A DNA stretch of 14,941 bases. Source: a virus. Lineage: Duplodnaviria; Heunggongvirae; Uroviricota; Caudoviricetes. The stretch lies in the IMG/VR virus record IMGVR_UViG_2545824709_000009; one strand, written 5' to 3'. Shown in pieces: positions 1 to 14,941 of this stretch. A program made the position numbers and the translations under genes. How positions within the stretch are numbered: the first letter of the stretch is position 1; every line of letters starts with the position of its first letter. Under the pieces are notes generated by a model, which made no database searches, was not told where the DNA came from, and saw only the letters and a list, made by a program, of their open reading frames with translations.

Positions 1-1284
1 TTACTTCTTCGCCTCTGCAACCACTTTACTACCCACGCCGCGGTTATTGTATTCCCACATGCGGTTGTAGTTAGTGTCATTCAGATTGCGCTGTATTTCG
101 TCGTTATCATCTACGCTGCCGGTATTACCCGCAAACGGACGATTAGAGATCACCGCATCGGCCCACGGTTTAGCCGTGTTAAAACCTTCGTTGATGGCGC
201 TATCACGGATCACCACCTGACCGTTGGTATTGGCATCAACATCCAGCGAGCGGCCCAGTTGCGCCACGCCATCACCGGAAGCATTGAAACGGCTGTTTAC
301 AGCGAGGAAACCGTAGTAAATGTTGGACAGCGTTGCCGGTGCAAACACATACGCTTCTTGCTGAGTACGTGAGTTCACCACGCGGAATTCGGTGTTATCG
401 AACACCACTGCGCCGCGACCAGAAACGATATCCACATCCCCTTCAATGTAGCTGTTGGTCACCAGCGTACGCGGCTGACGATTCGTTTCCAGACGGTTCT
501 GCACACCGCTGTTGGTGACAAAGAAGGTGTTCTGACGACCGAGAATGTTCACGTTGTTAATCTGTACCTGGTCACCATCAGTACGCAGTGCCACCGCCGG
601 ATGGTTACCCGCATCTACGCTATCGCCCAGCGTGTTTTCGATGGTCAGGTTTTGCAGTTGCAGGCCATTGTTTTGTGACCAGAAGACCGCTGAACAGAGA
701 ACACCGATACTGTTGCTGCGTTTGCTCTGGCAGCTATCGTACATATACCACGCTGGTTTACCTGGCATATATTTGCCGCGCGGGTTGACGTCGTGACGCC
801 AGTCGGCAGGGCTCATGCCCCCATCAAGGGAAAGCCCAATCTTCACATCAATCGGTTTTTCACCTGTACCGTACAGAGTAATTCCACCCGGAGCGGCAGG
901 AACATATACCGTTCCCTGATACTCACCTGGCATCACGGCAATATACTGGCGCTTGTTGGTACGCTTGATAATTGCCGCATCTACCGCCGCCTGAATCGTG
1001 GTATGCGTTACACCTTGAGTACCCGCCGGGCCGACAACAAAGTCAGGTTGCGCAGGCAGGGTAATCGGGGAAGGATTCCACGCTGCAGCACCTGGTGTCA
1101 GGGATGCAAAATAGTGTTGAGCATCGAAATTCTGCGCTTCTTTTGCCGACAGAATCGGGCGAGAAGAGGTACCAGGCGCGGTTTGATCAGAAGGACGTTG
1201 ATCGGGTGGTGTTGAGCTACAGGCGGTCAGCGTCACGCCAAAAGCCAATGCCAGCGCCAGACGGGAAACTGAAAATGTGTTCAC
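1..1284 (-). CDS. ybhC: Outer-membrane lipoprotein YbhC (pectinesterase-like / acyl-CoA thioesterase family), host gene flanking the lambda attachment site
   Basis: 427-aa minus-strand ORF with an N-terminal signal peptide and lipobox (LTLTAC SS). Recognised from memory as E. coli YbhC, the gene next to lambda attB. Confidence 0.9.
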   Translation of the reverse strand: MNTFSVSRLALALAFGVTLTACSSTPPDQRPSDQTAPGTSSRPILSAKEAQNFDAQHYFASLTPGAAAWNPSPITLPAQPDFVVGPAGTQGVTHTTIQAAVDAAIIKRTNKRQYIAVMPGEYQGTVYVPAAPGGITLYGTGEKPIDVKIGLSLDGGMSPADWRHDVNPRGKYMPGKPAWYMYDSCQSKRSNSIGVLCSAVFWSQNNGLQLQNLTIENTLGDSVDAGNHPAVALRTDGDQVQINNVNILGRQNTFFVTNSGVQNRLETNRQPRTLVTNSYIEGDVDIVSGRGAVVFDNTEFRVVNSRTQQEAYVFAPATLSNIYYGFLAVNSRFNASGDGVAQLGRSLDVDANTNGQVVIRDSAINEGFNTAKPWADAVISNRPFAGNTGSVDDNDEIQRNLNDTNYNRMWEYNNRGVGSKVVAEAKK

Positions 1285-3134: not shown

Positions 3135-3737
3135 ATGAGCTATTTTCTGCGCAAAAAATGGATGGTAAATTTGTCCGGGTCAGGAAAAATTTTATGGGCG
3201 CTAAACATGAAAAAAGATTCGTATCCTTATTTGATTTGCATGACAGTTTCAGGGCTGATCTTTATTTTCCTTTTCTTCTGGTGGCGGGCAGATATCTACA
3301 GGGTCACGTTTCTTAATCAGAGTATATCCCACTATTACATTCTGTTTAGCATGGGAATAGCTTTTCTGTTATCTCTGTTTTGGGTTAAGAAGGGGATAGT
3401 AAAACAAAGAGGCTGGAAGAGTCTGTCAGCATACCTTAAGGTTTATGCAGGGATGTGCATATTTGCAGGATTTTTTCTGATTATACCCCTTACGACACTA
3501 ACTTATTTTTTGCCTGGAGAGACATCGTCTTATGTTGCACCGTATCGGTATACTTCCGGTAGTTCAAAAAGTTGTTCTGGAGCTGAGGTGGATGACCCCG
3601 ATCTACATGAGAATATTCGCATTTGCTATCCGTATGGCAATTATGAGTACGATAATATTATCTATGTTGAAAAGAAAATTAATATATTAGGTGCGGTAGT
3701 GACATATGCACAGACCGCGCGTGATGATACTGAATGA
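3135..3737 (+). CDS. Small polytopic membrane protein of unknown family; candidate lysogen-expressed accessory (exclusion/defence) gene
   Basis: Uninterrupted 200-codon ORF on the strand opposite the early-left operon. It sits in an AT-rich segment (about 38% GC by eye against about 50% in flanking phage genes). Three hydrophobic helices (LICMTVSGLIFIFLFFWW, YYILFSMGIAFLLSLFWV, GMCIFAGFFLIIPLTTL) with a very basic loop KKGIVKQRGWK, then an approximately 70-aa hydrophilic C-terminal tail containing two Cys. Start uncertain: in-frame ATGs at 3135, 3162 and 3207, none with a strong SD. Confidence 0.7.
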   Translation: MSYFLRKKWMVNLSGSGKILWALNMKKDSYPYLICMTVSGLIFIFLFFWWRADIYRVTFLNQSISHYYILFSMGIAFLLSLFWVKKGIVKQRGWKSLSAYLKVYAGMCIFAGFFLIIPLTTLTYFLPGETSSYVAPYRYTSGSSKSCSGAEVDDPDLHENIRICYPYGNYEYDNIIYVEKKINILGAVVTYAQTARDDTE

Positions 3738-7545: not shown

Positions 7546-8235
7546 CTACCCATGCTTCCTATATGTCTGCGGCATGCTCCCAATAACCTTACCGAAGATG
7601 AACACCCGGTTCATCTCGTCTTTCTCGATCGGGTCCCACGGTGAGTAGCTTTTGTTATCAGAGATGACCAGCAGCTTATTCTTCATCATTTGCAGGCGCT
7701 TTACATGGGCTGTGTCGTCGTACAGAAACGCATAGATACCATCACCGTCGAAAGATTTAACTGTGATATCAACGAACAGCAGATCACCTGGTTCGATCGT
7801 TCCTGACATGCTGTCACCACGCACGTTAATGATGCGGATATTTTCCGCCTTCCTACCATCGAACATGTGACGAGCATCGTCAAACGAGTACTCAACCGAG
7901 CGTAGAACTTCTACAAACTCACGGTTGATGACTCCCGGCCCAGCACTGACTTCTATATCAAGAACGTCAATCTTGAAGTATTTGGAATGGCTGACAGTTG
8001 ATTGTATTGGTTGCACTGTACTGTCTGACATATTTCCAACGCCAGAAGATAACCATTCTGCGCGCACACCCAAAGCGTTCGCGATCTCCACGATTTTAGT
8101 TGTTTGATTAGCTTTCCCTGTTTCGATTTTCTGAATAGCAGCCTGGCTAACCCCGACCAAATCCCCAAGCGCCTTTTGTGTAAGGCCTCGCGCTAATCTG
8201 GCTTCTTTAAGTCTTTCTGAGAGTGTTGTTTTCAT
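7546..8235 (-). CDS. cI: Prophage repressor CI (N-terminal HTH, C-terminal S24 LexA-like autopeptidase domain)
   Basis: ORF with start chosen at MKTTLSERLKEARLARGLTQKALGDLVGVSQAAIQKIETGK (HTH, XRE-type); C-terminal domain carries the GDSM serine motif and a downstream Lys (AHVKRL). The track's upstream extension (to 8301) runs through the operator region and is unlikely. Divergent from cro across an operator region. Confidence 0.9.
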   Translation of the reverse strand: MKTTLSERLKEARLARGLTQKALGDLVGVSQAAIQKIETGKANQTTKIVEIANALGVRAEWLSSGVGNMSDSTVQPIQSTVSHSKYFKIDVLDIEVSAGPGVINREFVEVLRSVEYSFDDARHMFDGRKAENIRIINVRGDSMSGTIEPGDLLFVDITVKSFDGDGIYAFLYDDTAHVKRLQMMKNKLLVISDNKSYSPWDPIEKDEMNRVFIFGKVIGSMPQTYRKHG

Positions 8236-8339
8236 AGTCCAAATGTACAACCAAGGTTTTATTCCATCAAACGAAAATGGTTGTTGACTAAAAACAACCA
8301 TAGTTTTAATCTTGATTCAAATTAACCACGGAGGTTGTT
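8236..8339. promoter_or_regulatory. OR operator region with divergent pRM/pR promoters
   Basis: 25-bp palindrome ATGGTTGTTgactaaaAACAACCAT (8277-8301) containing -35 TTGACT (8284-8289), with a TTTTAAT-like -10 about 16 bp downstream. Extra half-sites ACAACC (about 8243) and GGTTGTT (8333-8339). Lies between divergent cI and cro. Confidence 0.6.
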
Positions 8340-8639: not shown

Positions 8640-9179
8640 ATGCAACCACTTACATACCAACAGACTAGCGGATTTAGCCCGACTGCGGTGATAAATCGTT
8701 CTCAAACAAAACAGGTGCCAGGCCACGAAAAAATCCGTGATGCCGTCCGCGCCTGGTCGGCTGTAGATAATCAGGATGTCGTTGCCACACTCATTGTGAA
8801 TGAGTATCGGGAGCAGGGCGGCGGCACCATCGATTTCCCTGATGATGTCAGCCGTGCACGCCAGAAGCTGTTCCGCTTCCTCGATAACAAATTCGATTCT
8901 GAAAAATACCGAAATAATGTGCGTGAACTGACCCCGGCAATTCTGGCGGTACTACCGCTGGAATATCGCGGTTACCTGGTTGAGCAGGATAGCTTCATGG
9001 CTAGGTTGGCTGAAATGGAAAAGGAACTCAGTGAGGCAAAACAGGCTGTCATTCTCAACGCACCACGCCACCAGAAACTGAAGGAAATTAGTGAAGGTAT
9101 TGTGTCGATGTTTCGTGTGGACCCAGATCTGGCTGGTCCATTGATGGCGATGGTTACTACCATGCTGGGGGCGATATGA
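8640..9179 (+). CDS. CII-position regulatory protein, probably YdaT family (the CII analogue of Rac-type immunity regions)
   Basis: 179-aa ORF with a good RBS (aaggag) between cro and O. Motifs NEYREQGGGTIDFPDD and LTPAILAVLPLEYRGYL resemble my recollection of YdaT-like proteins. Not similar to lambda CII. Confidence 0.6.
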   Translation: MQPLTYQQTSGFSPTAVINRSQTKQVPGHEKIRDAVRAWSAVDNQDVVATLIVNEYREQGGGTIDFPDDVSRARQKLFRFLDNKFDSEKYRNNVRELTPAILAVLPLEYRGYLVEQDSFMARLAEMEKELSEAKQAVILNAPRHQKLKEISEGIVSMFRVDPDLAGPLMAMVTTMLGAI

Positions 9180-9265
9180 CAGGTTCAGAAATGGCGAAAG
9201 CCGGTCTGCTGGAACAGAACCGACTTTCAGGTGCAAATCGTAACACACTCATTGCGGGAGGAATT

Positions 9266-10195
9266 ATGGCAAACACTGCTGAGATATTCAATTTTCCAGT
9301 GCCGGATGCGGCACAAAAGGAGCCGCGCGTGGCAGATCTCGATGATGGTTATACGCGCATTGCAAATGAGTTGCTGGAAGCTGTGATGCTGGCCGGATTA
9401 ACACAGCACCAGCTTCTGGTCTTCCTGGCTGTCATGCGCAAAACATATGGCTTTAATAAAAAACTGGATTGGGTGAGCAACGAGCAACTTTCCGAGTTGA
9501 CCGGGATATTGCCGCACAAGTGTTCTGCTGCAAAAAGTGTTCTGGTAAAGCGTGGGATTTTTATTCAGAGTGGGCGGAATATCGGCATTAATAATGTGGT
9601 CAGTGAATGGTCAACATTACCCGAATCAGGTAAGAAAAATAAAGTTTACCTGAAAGAGGTAAATTTACCTGAATCAGGTAAGAAAAGTTTACCCAAATCA
9701 GGTAAAGGCGTTTACCCGAATCAGGTAAACACAAAAGACAAACTAACAAAAGACAATATAAAACCTTTTTCGTCCGAGAATTCTGGCGAATCCTCTGACC
9801 AGCCAGAAAACGACTTTCCTTTGGAGAAACTGGATGCTGCAATTCAGAGCGGCAGCAAGTGGGGGACAGCAGAAGACCTGACCGCCGCAGAGTGGATGTT
9901 TAACATGGTGAAGACCATCGCGCCCTCAGCCAGAAAACCGAATTTTGCAGGGTGGGCTAACGATATCCGCCTGATGCGTGAACGTGACGGACGTAACCAC
10001 CGCGACATGTGCGTGCTGTTCCGCTGGGCATGCCAGGACAACTTCTGGTCCGGTAACGTGCTGAGTCCGGCCAAACTCCGCGACAAGTGGACCCAACTCG
10101 AAATCAACCGTAACAAGCAACAGGCTGGCGTGACAACCGGAAAATCAAAACTCGACCTGACAAACACTGACTGGATTTACGGGGTGGATTTATGA
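9266..10195 (+). CDS. O: Replication initiator O (lambda O type, with divergent N-terminal iteron-binding domain)
   Basis: Start chosen at the ATG after GGAGG (MANTAEIFNFPVPD...), aligning with the lambda O N-terminus; the track's longer ORF starts at 9176. The C-terminal half (from ...SSENSGESSDQPENDFPLEKLDAAIQSG...) is recognised as near-identical to lambda O. Contains the iterons. Confidence 0.9.
   Translation: MANTAEIFNFPVPDAAQKEPRVADLDDGYTRIANELLEAVMLAGLTQHQLLVFLAVMRKTYGFNKKLDWVSNEQLSELTGILPHKCSAAKSVLVKRGIFIQSGRNIGINNVVSEWSTLPESGKKNKVYLKEVNLPESGKKSLPKSGKGVYPNQVNTKDKLTKDNIKPFSSENSGESSDQPENDFPLEKLDAAIQSGSKWGTAEDLTAAEWMFNMVKTIAPSARKPNFAGWANDIRLMRERDGRNHRDMCVLFRWACQDNFWSGNVLSPAKLRDKWTQLEINRNKQQAGVTTGKSKLDLTNTDWIYGVDL
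9617..9770. repeat. ori: Replication origin: five ~19-bp palindromic iterons plus AT-rich region inside O
   Basis: TTACCCGAATCAGGTAA (9617), TTACCTGAAAGAGGTAA (9646, variant), TTACCTGAATCAGGTAA (9665), TTACCCAAATCAGGTAA (9689), TTACCCGAATCAGGTAA (9713), followed by acaaaagacaaactaacaaaagacaatataaaacc. Same architecture as lambda ori but different iteron sequence. Confidence 0.8.
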
Positions 10196-10893
10196 AAAAC
10201 ATCGCCGCACAGATGGTTAACTTTGACCGTGAGCAGATGCGCCGGATCGCCAACAACATGCCGGAACAGTACGACGAAAAGCCGCAGGTACAGCAGGTAG
10301 CGCAGATCATCAACGGTGTGTTCAGCCAGTTACTGGCAACTTTCCCGGCGAGCCTGGCTAACCGTGACCAGAATGAACTGAACGAAATCCGCCGCCAGTG
10401 GGTTCTGGCTTTCTGGGAAAACGGGATCACCACAATGGAACAGGTTAACGCTGGAATGCGCGTAGCCCGTCGGCAGAATCGACCATTCCTGCCATCACCC
10501 GGGCAGTTTGTCGCCTGGTGCCGGGAAGAAGCATCCGTTACCGCCGGGCTGCCAAACGCCAGCGAGCTGGTTGATATGGTTTACGAGTATTGCCGGAAGC
10601 GCGGGCTGTATCCGGATGCAGAGTCTTATCCGTGGAAATCAAACGCGCACTACTGGCTGGTTACCAACCTGTATCAGAACATGCGGGCCAATGCGTTGAC
10701 TGACGCGGAATTACGGCGCAAGGCTGCCGATGAACTGTCCTGTATGACCGCACGAATTAACCGTGGTGAGGCTATACCTGAACCAGTAAAACAACTTCCT
10801 GTCATGGGCGGTAGACCTCTAAATCGTGCACAGGCTCTGGCGAAGATCGCAGAAATCAAAGCTAAGTTTGGGCTGAAAGGAGCAAGGGTATGA
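10192..10893 (+). CDS. P: Replication protein P (DnaB helicase loader)
   Basis: 233-aa ORF MKNIAAQMVNFDREQMRRIANNMPEQYDEKPQVQQVAQIINGVF..., recognised as near-identical to lambda P; start overlaps the O stop. Confidence 0.97.
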   Translation: MKNIAAQMVNFDREQMRRIANNMPEQYDEKPQVQQVAQIINGVFSQLLATFPASLANRDQNELNEIRRQWVLAFWENGITTMEQVNAGMRVARRQNRPFLPSPGQFVAWCREEASVTAGLPNASELVDMVYEYCRKRGLYPDAESYPWKSNAHYWLVTNLYQNMRANALTDAELRRKAADELSCMTARINRGEAIPEPVKQLPVMGGRPLNRAQALAKIAEIKAKFGLKGARV

Positions 10894-11192
10894 CGGGCAA
10901 AGAGGCAATTATTCATTACCTGGGGACTCATAAGAAATTCTGTGCGCAGGACGTTGCCGCGGTAACAGGCGCAACGGTAACCAGCATAAATCAGGCTGCG
11001 GCTAAAATGGCGCGGGCAGGAATCCTGGTCGTTGATGGTAAGGTCTGGCGAACGGTGTATTATCGGTTCGCTACCAGAGAAGAATGGGAAGGAAAGGTGA
11101 GCACGAATTTGATTTTTAAGGAGTGTCGCCAGAGTGCCGCGATGAAACGGGTATTGAGGGTATATAAAAGAACATCAATGGGTACACAATGA
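10890..11192 (+). CDS. ren: Ren (Rex exclusion-relief protein homologue)
   Basis: 100-aa ORF MTGKEAIIHYLGTHKKFCAQDVAAVTGATVTSINQAAAKMARAG..., recognised as lambda/DLP12 Ren-like; overlaps the P stop. Confidence 0.9.
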   Translation: MTGKEAIIHYLGTHKKFCAQDVAAVTGATVTSINQAAAKMARAGILVVDGKVWRTVYYRFATREEWEGKVSTNLIFKECRQSAAMKRVLRVYKRTSMGTQ

Positions 11193-11259
11193 TGAAACAG
11201 GTGAGTTGAGTTCAAACTGTAGTACAATTCTCTCCAGTTTGAACAGGAAAGAATATGCT

Positions 11260-11592
11260 ATGAATCCTTATATTTATCTTGGTGGTGCAATACTTGCAGA
11301 GGTCATTGGTACAACCTTAATGAAGTTTTCAGAAGGTTTTACACGGTTATGGCCATCTGTTGGTACAATTATTTGTTATTGTGCATCATTCTGGTTATTA
11401 GCTCAGACGCTGGCTTATATTCCTACAGGGATTGCTTATGCTATCTGGTCAGGAGTCGGTATTGTCCTGATTAGCTTACTATCATGGGGATTTTTCGGCC
11501 AACGGTTGGACCTGCCAGCCATTATAGGCATGATGTTGATTTGTGCCGGTGTGTTGGTTATTAATTTATTGTCACGAAGCACACCACATTAA
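11260..11592 (+). CDS. emrE: SMR-family multidrug/quaternary-ammonium efflux transporter EmrE
   Basis: 110-aa protein from MNPYIYLGGAILAEVIGTTLMKFSEGFTRLWPSVGTIICYCASFWLLAQTL... with an AGGAAA RBS, recognised as EmrE. The track's upstream extension (from 11206) lacks support. Confidence 0.95.
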   Translation: MNPYIYLGGAILAEVIGTTLMKFSEGFTRLWPSVGTIICYCASFWLLAQTLAYIPTGIAYAIWSGVGIVLISLLSWGFFGQRLDLPAIIGMMLICAGVLVINLLSRSTPH

Positions 11593-11624
11593 AAATAATT
11601 TGTTTTTAAACGACTAAAATATGG

Positions 11625-11660
11625 AGGCTCGTATATTTATATGGGCCTCGTTTTATGCTT
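11625..11660 (+). terminator. Putative intrinsic terminator after emrE
   Basis: GAGGCTC ... GGGCCTC stem (one G-U pair, large loop) followed by GTTTTATGCTTTTT. Confidence 0.35.
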
Positions 11661-11847
11661 TTTGTTAATGTCTTTAGTTTTTATTCATTCTTTTGTGCTT
11701 TCAAGATTATGGTGTAAGAAAATTGCAATACGATTATTGTTGTATATTCAAGATAATGTGACCTTAATTGTCTTTTTAAATAAAAATTAAACAAAAATCA
11801 TATCTCACCACTAAGGTTTATAAAAGCATACTTTAGCAGGTGTCACC

Positions 11848-13374
11848 ATGAAAAAAGCCATAGCATATATGCGATTTTCATCACCAGGTCAGATGTCTGG
11901 TGATTCATTAAACCGCCAGAGAAGGCTTATTACTGAATGGCTAAAGGTAAATAGTGATTATTACCTTGATACCGTAACGTATGAAGATTTGGGGTTAAGC
12001 GCATTCAATGGAAAGCATGCACAATCAGGAGCTTTTTCGGAATTTTTAGATGCTATAGAACATGGTTATATATTGCCAGGGACTACATTGTTAGTTGAAA
12101 GTCTGGACAGACTTTCAAGAGAAAAAGTCGGTGAAGCGATTGAGCGTCTGAAATTGATTTTGAATCACGGTATTGATGTTATAACTCTTTGCGATAATAC
12201 AGTCTATAATATTGACTCATTGAATGAGCCATATTCATTAATAAAAGCCATACTTATAGCACAAAGGGCAAATGAAGAAAGCGAGATAAAGTCAAGTCGG
12301 GTTAAATTATCATGGAAGAAAAAACGGCAGGATGCACTGGAGTCAGGCACGATTATGACGGCGTCTTGTCCGAGATGGCTCTCATTGGATGACAAAAGAA
12401 CGGCTTTTGTTCCAGACCCCGACAGGGTGAAAACTATTGAGCTAATTTTTAAACTCAGGATGGAAAGGCGCTCATTGAATGCAATAGCCAAGTATTTAAA
12501 TGATCATGCTGTAAAGAATTTCTCAGGAAAAGAAAGTGCATGGGGACCTTCTGTAATTGAAAAATTATTAGCGAATAAAGCTCTGATAGGTATATGCGTA
12601 CCTTCATATCGTGCAAGAGGTAAAGGAATAAGTGAAATCGCTGGCTATTATCCCAGAGTCATATCAGATGATTTGTTTTACGCTGTGCAGGAAATTCGGT
12701 TGGCACCTTTTGGTATTAGCAATAGTAGCAAAAATCCTATGTTGATAAATCTACTTCGAACAGTTATGAAGTGCGAGGCTTGTGGTAATACCATGATTGT
12801 TCATGCGGTATCTGGAAGTTTGCATGGCTATTATGTTTGTCCGATGAGAAGACTGCATCGATGTGACAGGCCATCAATAAAGAGAGATTTGGTTGATTAT
12901 AATATCATTAATGAGTTGCTTTTTAATTGTAGTAAAATCCAACCAGTTGAAAACAAGAAAGATGCTAATGAAACTTTAGAGTTGAAAATTATTGAGCTCC
13001 AGATGAAAATTAATAATTTAATTGCTGCATTATCTGTTGCGCCTGAAGTTACCGCTATAGCAGAAAAAATCAGAGTATTAGATAAGGAATTACGAAGGGC
13101 TTCTGTATCATTAAAAACTTTGAAGAGTAAAGCGGTGAGTTCACTTGGTGATTTTCATGCTATTGACTTAACCAGTAAAAATGGGCGAGAGCTATGTCGT
13201 ACACTTGCCTATAAAACATTCGAAAAAATCATAATCAATACAGATAATAAAACCTGTGATATCTATTTTATGAATGGCATTGTTTTTAAACACTATCCTT
13301 TAATGAAAACAATATCTGCCCAGCAGGCGATAAGTACTCTCAAATATATGGTTGATGGTGAGGTTTATTTTTGA
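11848..13374 (+). CDS. ybcK: Large serine recombinase (YbcK-like; resolvase catalytic domain, recombinase domain, zinc ribbon, coiled coil)
   Basis: 508-aa ORF. N-terminal AYMRFSSPGQ motif (catalytic Ser), Cys cluster CEACGN...YYVCPM...C, and a C-terminal predicted coiled coil (LELKIIELQMKINNLIAALS). Very AT-rich. Length and gene order ren-emrE-ybcK match the DLP12 arrangement from memory. Confidence 0.85.
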   Translation: MKKAIAYMRFSSPGQMSGDSLNRQRRLITEWLKVNSDYYLDTVTYEDLGLSAFNGKHAQSGAFSEFLDAIEHGYILPGTTLLVESLDRLSREKVGEAIERLKLILNHGIDVITLCDNTVYNIDSLNEPYSLIKAILIAQRANEESEIKSSRVKLSWKKKRQDALESGTIMTASCPRWLSLDDKRTAFVPDPDRVKTIELIFKLRMERRSLNAIAKYLNDHAVKNFSGKESAWGPSVIEKLLANKALIGICVPSYRARGKGISEIAGYYPRVISDDLFYAVQEIRLAPFGISNSSKNPMLINLLRTVMKCEACGNTMIVHAVSGSLHGYYVCPMRRLHRCDRPSIKRDLVDYNIINELLFNCSKIQPVENKKDANETLELKIIELQMKINNLIAALSVAPEVTAIAEKIRVLDKELRRASVSLKTLKSKAVSSLGDFHAIDLTSKNGRELCRTLAYKTFEKIIINTDNKTCDIYFMNGIVFKHYPLMKTISAQQAISTLKYMVDGEVYF

Positions 13375-13485
13375 GTAATAATCACTTTTTCAACCGTGCT
13401 ATAGTAAGAAAGTTAGGTAAGTACAATAAAATTATCTATCCTGAACGAAGCGTCCTGAGCTATGGTTTTACTATAGGGACTGCCA

Positions 13486-13809
13486 ATGGATGCTGGCGTT
13501 CTCGTTCTAGCAGTTCAACAATCCCCAATCACAAAACAATTCACTGATAACGAACTTTGCACACTCGCCTGGTTATGGCGAGCAGGGAATGTGATGTTAA
13601 TTACCTACCAGAACGTTACTCCTCTTCTTCAGGTTGCGGAGCATCGTGAAGCTGGTCGCTTCACTTCTATCGAGCAAGAATATCCCCAGATACTCAACAG
13701 AGCGCGAGCAATCCTCGTCCGAGAAACGGCACATGTAAAACTTCAGCCGTGGCAGGATGATAAGTGGAGTCGAGTATTGCCGCATTTACCTCAGAATCTG
13801 TTTCAATAA
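13486..13809 (+). CDS. Hypothetical protein (107 aa), unknown function
   Basis: ORF with mid-range GC and a weak RBS; no recognisable motifs. Could be a gene fragment. Confidence 0.35.
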   Translation: MDAGVLVLAVQQSPITKQFTDNELCTLAWLWRAGNVMLITYQNVTPLLQVAEHREAGRFTSIEQEYPQILNRARAILVRETAHVKLQPWQDDKWSRVLPHLPQNLFQ

Positions 13810-13983: not shown

Positions 13984-14679
13984 ATGGACAATATTAATAA
14001 ACACGGGCTCTCAAGAAGAATACCTGAGACAATAAAACGTCAGATAAGGCAAAGGTGCGGCTTTGGCTGTGTAATTTGTGGATTTGGATTTTATGATTAT
14101 GAGCATTTTAAACCTGACTTCGTTGATGCCAAAGTACATGATCCGAATGGAATGACACTTCTTTGCTCCCAATGCAATCAAAAAAGAGCTCGTGGTAGAC
14201 TTTCAGCACAGACAGTGGAAATAGCTGACAGAAATCCCAAGTGCTTACAGGCTGGTTTTGCAAATGAAATGTTTGATTTTCATAATGAGCCTATAACAGT
14301 AAAATTTGCAGGAGTGACGTTTCATAACTGTCAAAATTTGATTGTAGTCAACGAACAACCCATTCTTTCTGTGAAACCTTCACCCATACCACATGGACCG
14401 ATGCTTTTATCAGGAATTTTCTGTAATTCTATTGGTAAGGAGACTTTACTGATAGATGAAAATGAATGGAAAGCTAAATCAGACAATTGGGATGTGGAGT
14501 GTACCGGCCCGCGTATAACAATACGACGTGGGCCAGGAGAGTTTGCCCTCGTTCTAAAAATGGAACCTCCAACAGGATTGATTGTTGAGCGTCTTGATAT
14601 GTTGTATGAAGGGGTCAGGATGAAAGGAGATAAAGATCTGCTGGAAGTTTTGAACCGCCCCGGGAATCCTGGAGACTAA
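13984..14679 (+). CDS. HNH-motif nuclease-like protein, 3' end probably truncated by IS insertion (last ~9 codons and stop come from IS sequence)
   Basis: N-terminal CVIC-x8-H-x13-N-x5-CSQC arrangement (residues ~29-64), typical of a zinc-bound HNH/HNN nuclease finger, plus an unrecognised ~150-aa C-terminal region. AT-rich. The ORF reads into the IS left inverted repeat that starts at 14651. Confidence 0.55.
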
Positions 14680-14941
14680 ACTTCCTGAGAAAGAGGTAAA
14701 CAGGATGACTAAAAATACTCGTTTTTCCCCCGAAGTCCGTCAACGGGCAGTCCGTATGGTTCTGGAAAGTCAGAGCGAATATGACTCACAATGGGCGACA
14801 ATTTGTTCCATTGCTCCAAAGATTGGCTGTACGCCGGAGACTCTGCGTGTCTGGGTTCGCCAGCATGAGCGGGATACCGGGGGCGGTGATGGAGGGCTCA
14901 CCACCGCTGAACGTCAGCGTCTGAAAGAGCTGGAACGTGAA
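14651..14941 (+). mobile_element. IS3-family insertion sequence, IS629-like, left end (runs off the window)
   Basis: Left terminal repeat TGAACCGCCCCGGGAATCCTGGAGACTAAACTTCC followed by an orfA beginning [23 protein letters not shown], recognised from memory as IS629/IS1203-type. Confidence 0.8.
14705..14941 (+). CDS. IS629-like transposase OrfA (HTH subunit), partial at window end
   Basis: [82 protein letters not shown]..., no stop within the window. Confidence 0.85.

What the first reader, a model, noticed from the sequence alone, without database searches (positions are those of the whole stretch)
11200..13480. Low-GC cargo in the nin position: emrE efflux pump plus a lone large serine recombinase
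Directly after ren, where lambda has the nin genes, the sequence turns AT-rich and carries emrE (SMR drug/antiseptic efflux) with its own terminator, then a 255-bp AT-rich promoter region and a 508-aa large serine recombinase. That puts a phage-borne resistance determinant on an inducible lambdoid prophage. The recombinase has no obvious job in a phage that already has a tyrosine integrase at att. It could mobilise this cargo as a nested element, or invert a segment. I found no cognate recombination sites flanking it in the window.
Basis: partly seen in the sequence, partly recalled or inferred. Interest (0 to 1): 0.5.

Follow-up and report, generated by a model that had tools for sequence, protein, structure and literature searches.

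The report
Known emrE–ybcK cargo of lambdoid phages
This is the emrE–ylcJ–ybcK accessory block already known from the E. coli K-12 DLP12 prophage and from live lambda-like phages: two separately acquired AT-rich genes, not a nested mobile element, and the intact serine recombinase still has no known target.

Summary
After ren (10890-11192) come emrE (11260-11592), an intrinsic terminator, a 255-bp AT-rich spacer and a 508-aa large serine recombinase (LSR), ybcK (11848-13374). GC is 0.28-0.39 here against 0.48 in the rest of the window.

The block is not new. It is the DLP12 emrE-ylcJ-ybcK locus of E. coli K-12 (96% identical). It is present in 1398 of 5426 complete E. coli genomes and in 12 phage records. 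Phage-borne emrE has already been published.

The nested-element idea is not supported:
- About 2300 genomes carry emrE without ybcK.
- None of the roughly 17 homologue contexts whose flanking genes were read shows an SMR gene.
- In 80 viral contigs the left context of ybcK is constant, apart from contig ends and interruptions, while the right breakpoints scatter over at least 12 positions.
- No flanking repeats and no inverted variants were found.

YbcK is not dead. Its catalytic Ser/Arg motifs and four zinc-ribbon cysteines are invariant across a 42-61% identical enterobacterial family. Its dN/dS is 0.06-0.075, the same as replication gene P. In K-12 its leader is a Rho-dependent terminator, so it is probably expressed only under N antitermination. 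Its DNA target remains unknown.

Ordinary and already known. The one small open question is what YbcK does.

The parts
10890..11192 (+). ren (Ren-like exclusion protein), the last backbone gene before the cargo
   Evidence: PHROG phrog_142 E 1e-41. Annotated 'protein ren' in matching genomes.
11135..11183 (.). Left mosaic joint, inside the 3' end of ren
   Evidence: Phages that lack the cargo lose homology at 11165 (PhiR5_1) and 11135 (IdasGreatGrand). The chromosomal emrE islet starts matching at 11183.
11210..11244 (.). Imperfect palindrome (13-nt arms, 9-nt spacer) in the emrE leader. It belongs to the emrE cassette.
   Evidence: I22. Conserved in K-12 and, with one change in one arm, in the ST131 islet. 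As an RNA hairpin it is unexceptional (-13.4 kcal/mol, z -0.69). Function unknown.
11260..11592 (+). emrE, an SMR proton/drug antiporter (110 aa)
   Evidence: NCBIfam EmrE 240.6 bits, cutoff 226. Pfam PF00893. One residue different from K-12 EmrE, Glu14 present. As a cassette, 11183-11600 occurs alone in about 2300 genomes.
11624..11659 (+). Intrinsic terminator after emrE
   Evidence: 11-bp stem with 5 GC pairs plus a T-run. It lies inside the 2083-bp ylcJ-ybcK indel that is absent from the emrE-ybcL islet.
11641..11790 (+). ylcJ-like small ORF (49 aa, hydrophobic)
   Evidence: Translation. K-12 YlcJ was detected by epitope tagging (PMC6001520). The region is 85% identical in O157, where the annotated small ORF has different coordinates and length.
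11593..11847 (+). AT-rich ybcK leader (GC 0.28). The homologous K-12 region is a Rho/NusG-dependent terminator (tybcK).
   Evidence: 95.7% identical to K-12. PMC4150792. Applying this to the window copy is an inference.
11848..13374 (+). ybcK, a large serine recombinase (508 aa), intact
   Evidence: Pfam Resolvase, Recombinase and Zn_ribbon_recom. Invariant R9, S11, D87-R88, R91 and four Cys. AF2 model and full-length Foldseek hits to serine integrases. PHROG integrase E 3e-120. dN/dS 0.06-0.075.
13375..13498 (.). 3' flank of ybcK. It is homologous to the K-12 flank for about 100 nt but strongly diverged. Many mosaic breakpoints start here.
   Evidence: Breakpoints at 13383, 13425, 13586 ... 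14650.
13486..13809 (+). 5'-truncated Rha/Ant-type antirepressor gene (only the P22AR C-terminal domain remains). It marks the right edge of the cargo.
   Evidence: Pfam P22_AR_C. Homology to the full-length 'Rha protein' gene of PhiR5_1 resumes at 13499, about 440 nt into that gene.

Best explanation
The segment is the DLP12-type accessory block of lambda-like coliphages. It consists of two AT-rich cassettes of separate origin, fixed at the ren/nin junction by ordinary mosaic (illegitimate or homeologous) recombination. It is not a nested transposable unit.

Cassette 1 is emrE (about 11183-11600). It encodes the well-characterised SMR proton/drug antiporter. It gives the lysogen an extra or replacement copy of a gene that most E. 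coli already have.

Cassette 2 is the terminator, ylcJ and ybcK (about 11601-13470). It encodes a complete, catalytically competent large serine recombinase that is kept under strong purifying selection.

Inferred steps:
- In the lysogen, ybcK is kept silent by the emrE intrinsic terminator, by a Rho/NusG-dependent terminator in its leader, and by nucleoid-protein silencing of AT-rich DNA.
- It is transcribed mainly when N-antiterminated pR transcription reads through after infection or induction.
- It therefore acts as a phage early function, on DNA sites that lie outside its own cassette and are still unknown.
- It does not integrate its carrier phage, which uses the lambda-type tyrosine integrase at attB next to ybhC. 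It does not move emrE.
For: Shown:
- Identity with DLP12 emrE-ylcJ-ybcK: 95.9% over 10979-13413.
- The module is present in 1398 of 5426 complete E. coli genomes and in 12 phage records.
- emrE alone (11183-11600, about 92% identical) sits in a fliE-emrE-ybcL-ybcM islet in the remaining roughly 2300 genomes; 3 of 3 sampled were this islet.
- A 2083-bp ylcJ-ybcK indel separates the K-12 and islet arrangements.
- Identity steps down between the cassettes: emrE 98.5-99.4%, ybcK 95.6-97.1%.
- In 80 viral contigs ybcK has P-ren-emrE on its left wherever the left side is readable without interruption, and the nin genes 0.9-4 kb to its right in 74 of 80. Right breakpoints fall at 12 or more positions.
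- The roughly 17 homologue contexts whose flanking genes were read show no SMR gene.
- Catalytic and zinc-binding residues are invariant. The fold is that of a serine integrase.
- dN/dS is 0.06-0.075, against 0.06-0.10 for P.
- The carrier has its own lambda-type Int and Xis next to ybhC.

From the literature:
- tybcK is a Rho/NusG-dependent terminator and ybcK rises in rho/nusG mutants (PMC4150792).
- Hfq/polyP bind ybcK DNA (PMC10954037).
- emrE has been reported on lambda-like phages, and Perceval is an active prophage (PMC6969025, PMC9928086).
Against: - No DNA target, activity or phenotype of YbcK is known. The 'early phage function acting elsewhere' step is inference from gene position and from K-12 regulation data.
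- Homologous LSR genes behave as single-gene cassettes in several MGE contexts: L028 and L038 are 94% identical only from -223 to +75, and L015 and L023 share a left end at -120. This could mean the gene moves itself.
- Purifying selection was estimated from five alleles only.
- The right edge of the cargo truncates a Rha-like gene, so at least one acquisition event was disruptive and not a clean gene-boundary joint.
Confidence: 0.7

Rival explanations
1. Nested element. YbcK excises and integrates a unit made of emrE and ybcK, in the manner of the LSR transposons Tn4451 or Tn5397 that carry a resistance gene.
For: The recombinase gene lies at the right end of the AT-rich block. The block is present or absent among related phages. 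The right edge truncates a gene.
Against: - emrE occurs without ybcK in about 2300 genomes, and ybcK homologues are not seen with an SMR gene.
- There is one constant left junction and many scattered right breakpoints, not two fixed ends.
- No inverted-repeat half-sites occur at the ends.
- The two genes differ in divergence.
Confidence: 0.04
2. Self-mobile single-gene cassette. The ybcK-type LSR gene, with about 70-220 bp of leader, is itself a minimal serine-recombinase element that inserts into mobile-element DNA. emrE is only a neighbour.
For: - Homology between related LSR genes in different contexts stops at the gene edges: L006 vs L015 from -68 to the stop codon; L028 vs L038 from -223 to +75 at 94%; L015 vs L023 with a left end at -120.
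- The contexts include nin regions, the ends of prophages beyond the tail fibres, ICE/plasmid DNA and positions next to a tyrosine integrase.
- One copy sits beside a truncated DUF1367 gene.
Against: - In E. coli the gene has a single location across 1398 genomes and 80 viral contigs. The median is one place per genome, with no sign of ongoing transposition.
- No terminal inverted repeats or conserved target sequence could be found.
- Gene-edge boundaries are also what ordinary moron mosaicism produces.
Confidence: 0.12
3. Relic integrase. ybcK is a leftover of a serine-integrase phage that recombined into the lambdoid gene pool. It has no present function.
For: - A distant relative is the only annotated recombinase in the lambda-like Burkholderia phage Bcep176, where gp53 sits in the int position.
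- Enterobacterial homologues often lie within 0.5-2 kb of a provirus end, or next to ssrA in the position and orientation typical of an integrase.
- The gene is transcriptionally silenced in K-12 (PMC4150792, PMC10954037).
Against: - dN/dS is 0.06-0.075, as low as for the replication gene P.
- Catalytic and zinc residues are invariant over a family only 42-61% identical.
- All five alleles compared are full length, and 12 phage records give a full-length protein match.
Confidence: 0.1
4. Local invertase. YbcK flips a nearby segment, as Pin, Gin or PinQ do in other prophages.
For: - Serine recombinases of cryptic prophages do invert DNA (PMC12529663).
- A 15/16 inverted repeat exists at 11949-11964 and 13375-13390.
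Against: - That repeat is about what chance gives in 3 kb of AT-rich DNA (my estimate of the expected number is about 0.3). One arm lies inside ybcK itself, and K-12 differs from the window in the stretch holding the downstream arm.
- No inverted arrangement was found among 80 loci.
- Known invertases are small serine recombinases. YbcK has the integrase-type C-terminal domains.
Confidence: 0.03

Closest known systems
DLP12 cryptic prophage locus renD-emrE-ylcJ-ybcK of E. coli K-12 (b0542-b0544)
   Same: Same genes, same order and same junction with ren. 95.9% nucleotide identity over window 10979-13413.
   Different: In K-12, ren is split by IS3 and ybcK is followed by ybcL-ybcM. Here ren is intact, and ybcK is followed by a truncated Rha/Ant gene, an unknown ORF and an IS3-family element. 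Homology ends about 40 nt after the ybcK stop codon.
Active lambda-like coliphages carrying emrE-ybcK (Perceval of strain LF82, Turner, 4A7, Lambda_4C10, 1W, 3W, D2, PhiR34_1 and others)
   Same: P-ren-emrE-ybcK block at 96-97% identity. emrE on these phages has been reported as a moron (PMC6969025, PMC9928086).
   Different: The sequences to the right of ybcK differ (alpha/beta hydrolase, ybcL-ybcM, small ORFs). Immunity regions and integration sites also differ.
Phage serine integrases (PhiC31, Bxb1, Listeria A118/LI integrase)
   Same: Same domain set (catalytic domain, recombinase domain, zinc ribbon with coiled coil). Full-length structural matches at E 3e-19 to 2e-10. PHROG 'integrase'.
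   Different: From general knowledge, those enzymes are the sole integrase of their phage and lie next to attP. YbcK coexists with a lambda-type tyrosine integrase and lies mid-genome in the early right operon. No prophage is seen integrated through a ybcK-adjacent site.
LSR transposons that carry a resistance gene (Tn4451 TnpX, Tn5397 TndX)
   Same: A large serine recombinase gene next to a resistance-type gene in low-GC DNA.
   Different: Those elements have defined ends and circular intermediates and are found at several target sites (general knowledge). Here the two genes are distributed independently, and no defined ends exist.
Small serine invertases of E. coli cryptic prophages (PinE, PinQ, PinR)
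   Same: A serine recombinase encoded by a lambdoid or cryptic prophage that is not the prophage's integrase.
   Different: Those are small recombinases that flip tail-fibre segments flanked by inverted repeats (general knowledge; PMC12529663 for PinQ). YbcK is a 508-aa integrase-type enzyme with no invertible segment nearby.

Membership tests
Large serine recombinase (integrase-type) | N-terminal resolvase-type catalytic domain with a serine nucleophile and conserved arginines | tested here: met
   PF00239 68.5 bits, cutoff 23.3. R9, S11, Q15, D87, R88 and R91 are invariant in 20 family members.
Large serine recombinase (integrase-type) | Recombinase domain followed by a zinc-ribbon domain with four Cys | tested here: met
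   PF07508 53.9 bits and PF13408 32.9 bits, both above their cutoffs. C309, C312, C331 and C339 are invariant.
Large serine recombinase (integrase-type) | Long coiled-coil arm inserted in the zinc-ribbon domain; overall integrase fold | tested here: met
   The AF2 model has helices 346-427. Full-length Foldseek matches to serine integrase complexes 9dxd, 9iu2, 9tep and 4kis.
Large serine recombinase (integrase-type) | A cognate pair of att sites on which it acts | tested here: inconclusive
   No convincing repeats at the cassette ends. No prophage junctions next to ybcK. The sites may lie elsewhere. Activity cannot be tested in silico.
EmrE / SMR efflux transporter | About 110 aa, four-TM SMR family, essential Glu14, EmrE-level sequence match | tested here: met
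   NCBIfam SMR_efflux_EmrE 240.6 bits, cutoff 226. One substitution relative to K-12 EmrE, Glu14 present. Transport itself was not tested.
LSR-mobilised nested element (Tn4451/Tn5397-like) | Both genes travel together, with the same two ends, at different target sites | tested here: not met
   emrE alone in about 2300 genomes. ybcK homologues are not seen with emrE. One left junction and at least 12 right breakpoints.
LSR-mobilised nested element (Tn4451/Tn5397-like) | Terminal recombination sites (imperfect inverted half-sites around a crossover dinucleotide) | tested here: not met
   No end-to-end inverted repeat above chance. The K-12 versus ST131 indel junction shows only AATAAT microhomology.
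LSR-mobilised nested element (Tn4451/Tn5397-like) | Circular excision intermediate | not testable with these tools
   Needs PCR or long-read sequencing after YbcK expression.
Invertible-segment system (Gin/Pin type) | Segment flanked by inverted repeats and found in both orientations | tested here: not met
   The only inverted matches among 80 loci are IS ends at 14651. The best local inverted repeat is at chance level and not conserved.
Phage moron / accessory cassette | Dispensable insert of deviant composition, between backbone genes, with its own terminator | tested here: met
   GC 0.28-0.39 against 0.48. Absent from related phages PhiR5_1 and IdasGreatGrand. Terminator present. An independent promoter was not demonstrated: the consensus scan found no more sites than expected by chance.

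The most novel reading that the evidence does not exclude
YbcK-type recombinases may be a distinct class of accessory large serine recombinases of enterobacterial temperate phages, maintained by selection. They recur in the nin region and at the tail-fibre end of prophages. They would be silent in the lysogen and switched on by antitermination, and would act on sites outside their own cassette. Possible roles are an alternative integration route, recombination with resident prophages, or interference with competing elements.
Probability: 0.15. Interest if true: 0.6.

Novelty: already known. Interest (0 to 1): 0.2.

Why it matters
As a finding it matters little. The gene arrangement is in the K-12 reference annotation. 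emrE on lambda-like phages has been reported. emrE is a native gene of most E. coli, so its transfer by phage adds little resistance risk.

The residual interest is YbcK. It is an intact serine integrase-type enzyme, present in a quarter of complete E. coli genomes and in plaque-forming phages. It is under selection as strong as that on a replication gene, yet it has no known substrate. Finding its sites could reveal a second recombination activity of lambdoid phages and might yield another recombinase for genome engineering.

Tried and rejected
- Repeat searches for att-like or inverted repeats at the cargo ends gave nothing above chance.
- The palindrome in the emrE leader folds no better than shuffled sequence.
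- Rfam gave no credible RNA family.
- There is no LexA box ahead of ybcK.
- PADLOC gave no defence-system hit for YbcK or its neighbours.
- A PDB sequence search gave no hit; the fold search was needed.
- A 'distant' search for a second, diverged LSR homologue in E. coli genomes, which would have let me inspect a whole prophage, found only ybcK itself.
- I could not show whether homologues at prophage ends are the sole integrase. Flanks are limited to 10 kb, so the far end of those prophages could not be read.
- The 80-aa plus UmuD-like gene pair next to the LSR in three genera was considered as a possible directionality factor. I set it aside as an SOS-type moron pair: PHROG UmuD-like, and a LexA box read by eye ahead of the L006 copy.
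- The K-12 versus ST131 indel junction was examined as a possible excision scar. It is too diverged (about 10%) to interpret, and only AATAAT microhomology is visible.
Full report
**What is in the window.** The window is the left part of a lambda-like prophage. It starts with ybhC (pectinesterase-like, 1-1284, minus strand). Next come a lambda-type tyrosine integrase with an arm-binding domain (1419-2489) and Xis. Further on are a CI-type repressor with HTH and S24 peptidase domains (7546-8301), Cro- and CII-position genes, O (9176-10195), P (10192-10893) and ren (10890-11192). The best database matches share the window at 99.8-100% identity up to about 14650.

**Observation check.** Right after ren the GC content falls from 0.48 to 0.39, 0.28 and 0.365.
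- emrE is 11260-11592. It scores above the NCBIfam EmrE-specific cutoff (240.6 against 226) and differs from K-12 EmrE at one residue, with Glu14 intact.
- An intrinsic terminator lies at 11624-11649 with a T-run.
- The 255-bp spacer is real.
- ybcK (11848-13374) encodes 508 aa with the Resolvase, Recombinase and Zn_ribbon_recom domains.

Two details need correcting. The spacer holds a copy of ylcJ (11641-11790), whose 49-aa product was detected in K-12 (PMC6001520). In K-12 the same region was characterised as a Rho/NusG-dependent terminator, tybcK, not as a promoter (PMC4150792). The promoter scan found no more sigma-70-like sites than shuffled sequence gives.

**It is a known locus.** K-12 DLP12 has renD-emrE-ylcJ-ybcK in the same order, 95.9% identical over window 10979-13413.
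- The emrE plus ybcK block covers at least 80% of the query in 1398 of 5426 complete E. coli genomes. A diverged LSR probe found ybcK in exactly 1398 genomes and nothing else.
- Twelve phage records give a full-length YbcK match at 97-99% amino-acid identity, among them Perceval, Turner, 4A7, Lambda_4C10, 1W, 3W, D2, PhiR34_1 and PhiR47_2.
- Mathieu et al. reported EmrE in two lambda genomes from infant stool (PMC6969025).
- Misson et al. showed that Perceval is an active prophage of LF82. They listed EmrE among the morons induced in DMEM and used ybcK as a qPCR target (PMC9928086).

**Boundaries.** Related phages without the cargo (PhiR5_1, IdasGreatGrand) lose homology at 11165 and 11135, inside the end of ren. 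They regain it at 13499, about 440 nt into a 750-nt 'Rha protein' gene. The window's P22AR-C ORF (13486-13809) is therefore a 5'-truncated antirepressor-type gene. In 80 IMG/VR contigs carrying ybcK at 97-100% identity:
- the left context is P-ren-emrE wherever it can be read; the exceptions are contig ends and interruptions or context changes that I did not fully resolve;
- the right breakpoint varies: 13383 (20 contigs), 13425, 13586 (9), 13644, 13657, 13700, 13705, 13789 (14), 13797, 13802, 13860 (12) and 14650 (14);
- in 74 of 80 the nin genes (ybcN/ninB, ninE, ybcO, rusA and, in most, Q) follow 0.9-4 kb downstream.

This is the pattern of ordinary mosaic recombination at a fixed position. 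It is not the pattern of a site-specific element with two defined ends.

**emrE and ybcK are separate cassettes.**
- About 2300 genomes match only 11183-11600, at about 92% identity. In 3 of 3 sampled cases this is a fliE-adjacent islet, emrE-ybcL-ybcM, without ylcJ-ybcK.
- Against that islet, K-12 has a 2083-bp extra segment containing the emrE terminator, ylcJ, ybcK and 310 bp. Only AATAAT microhomology is visible at the junctions.
- The islet still carries the last 10 nt of ren, so it is itself a prophage remnant.
- Identity between the window and other alleles steps from 98.5-99.4% in emrE to 95.6-97.1% in ybcK.
- None of the YbcK homologue contexts whose flanking genes I read contains an SMR gene.
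- There are no inverted arrangements among the 80 loci other than IS ends, and no end-to-end repeats above chance.

The nested-element and invertase readings are therefore not supported.

**The recombinase is alive.**
- A family of full-length (502-523 aa) homologues at 42-61% identity exists in Atlantibacter, Yersinia, Pantoea, Erwinia, Kluyvera, Ewingella and Citrobacter.
- Across 20 members, R9, S11, Q15, the E-S-L-D-R-L-S-R-E motif and four zinc-ribbon cysteines are invariant.
- The AlphaFold model (pLDDT 79) shows a long helical arm at 346-427. It matches whole serine-integrase chains in the PDB (9dxd at E 3e-19, plus Bxb1, PhiC31 and LI integrase).
- The PHROGs hit is 'integrase', E 3e-120.
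- Among five E. coli and phage alleles, dN/dS is 0.06-0.075 in eight of ten pairs. The other two pairs, with only 7-8 substitutions each, give 0.11 and 0.16. Replication gene P gives 0.06-0.10.

**Where homologues sit.**
- Some lie beyond the tail-fibre genes at a prophage end: next to the 3' end of ssrA in Atlantibacter, and near lepA in Erwinia. In IMG/VR proviruses they lie within 0.5-2 kb of the contig end.
- Some lie in the nin region of lambdoid phages. The Atlantibacter clade has a constant right context (dinI, DUF1367, ninG, Q) and variable left contexts. A Pantoea clade copy is convergent with P.
- Others are in ICE or plasmid DNA, or next to a tyrosine integrase.
- Homology between related copies stops at the gene edges.
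- A 27% identical relative, gp53, is the only annotated recombinase of the lambda-like Burkholderia phage Bcep176 and sits in the int position.

The family therefore descends from phage integrases and now circulates as a single-gene accessory cassette. I could not tell whether the copies at prophage ends are the working integrase, because only 10-kb flanks are available.

**Most likely mechanism.**
- Shown: two independent accessory cassettes at the ren/nin junction; an intact recombinase under selection; and a carrier phage that has its own tyrosine integrase.
- Inferred: in the lysogen, ybcK is kept off by the emrE terminator, by the Rho-dependent leader terminator and by silencing of AT-rich DNA (PMC4150792; PMC10954037). 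It is expressed when N-modified polymerase reads through from pR. YbcK would then act early in infection or induction, on sites that are not next to its gene.
- Unknown: what those sites are.

**Verdict.** The main interpretation, a nested or inverting element, is not supported. The arrangement is already known. Interest is low, with a modest open question about the function of YbcK.

Noticed in passing
window 14651-14941: The left end of an IS3-family insertion sequence starts at 14651 (TGAACCGCCCCGGG...). Its OrfA starts at 14705 (HTH_Tnp_1). It cuts the ORF that begins at 13984, which is 260 aa in uninterrupted relatives. Genomes that are otherwise 100% identical lack this insertion.
   Followed up: partly
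window 13486-13809: This ORF is only the C-terminal 107 aa of a Rha/Ant-type antirepressor (P22AR C-terminal domain). The full-length gene is present in phage PhiR5_1, so acquisition of the cargo deleted its 5' half.
   Followed up: yes
L101 6001-7937, L232, L233 (E. coli chromosomes next to fliE): About 2300 complete E. coli genomes carry an emrE-ybcL-ybcM islet beside fliE. It still contains the last 10 nt of ren, and in one case is followed by an nmpC-like porin gene. It is a remnant of the nin region of a DLP12-like prophage, and it is where most strains keep their emrE.
   Followed up: partly
L006 7092-7684, L016 9325-9890, L011 10207-10772: A conserved pair of small genes (80 aa of unknown function plus a 107-115 aa UmuD-like protein) lies directly beside the YbcK-type recombinase in Atlantibacter, Pantoea and Erwinia prophages. 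In L006 it is preceded by a perfect LexA box, read by eye. Other neighbours are also SOS-related (umuDC, SRAP, dinI).
   Followed up: partly
L015 5755-7695: A 646-aa SIR2-domain protein that matches pAgo-associated and PDC-S65 defence models lies in the nin region of a lambdoid contig, a few kb upstream of the recombinase homologue.
   Followed up: no
L015 9673-9918 and 12653-13249: A 60-codon N-terminal fragment of a DUF1367 gene lies just upstream of the recombinase cassette, and a full DUF1367 gene lies 2.8 kb downstream. The two copies are 97% identical in protein but visibly diverged in DNA. This is a footprint of homeologous recombination between two phages.
   Followed up: partly
window 11210-11244: There is a 13-nt-arm palindrome in the emrE leader. 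It is conserved in K-12 and nearly so in the chromosomal islet. It could be a protein-binding site. As an RNA hairpin it is unremarkable.
   Followed up: partly
window, whole: The loose LexA-box pattern CTGT-N8-ACAG with up to one mismatch occurs 14 times, against 4.8 expected (0 of 200 shuffles reach 14). The only perfect copy is at 7710-7725, inside the repressor gene.
   Followed up: no
window 3135-3737: A 200-aa ORF on the plus strand in the int-exo region has no Pfam or PADLOC match.
   Followed up: no
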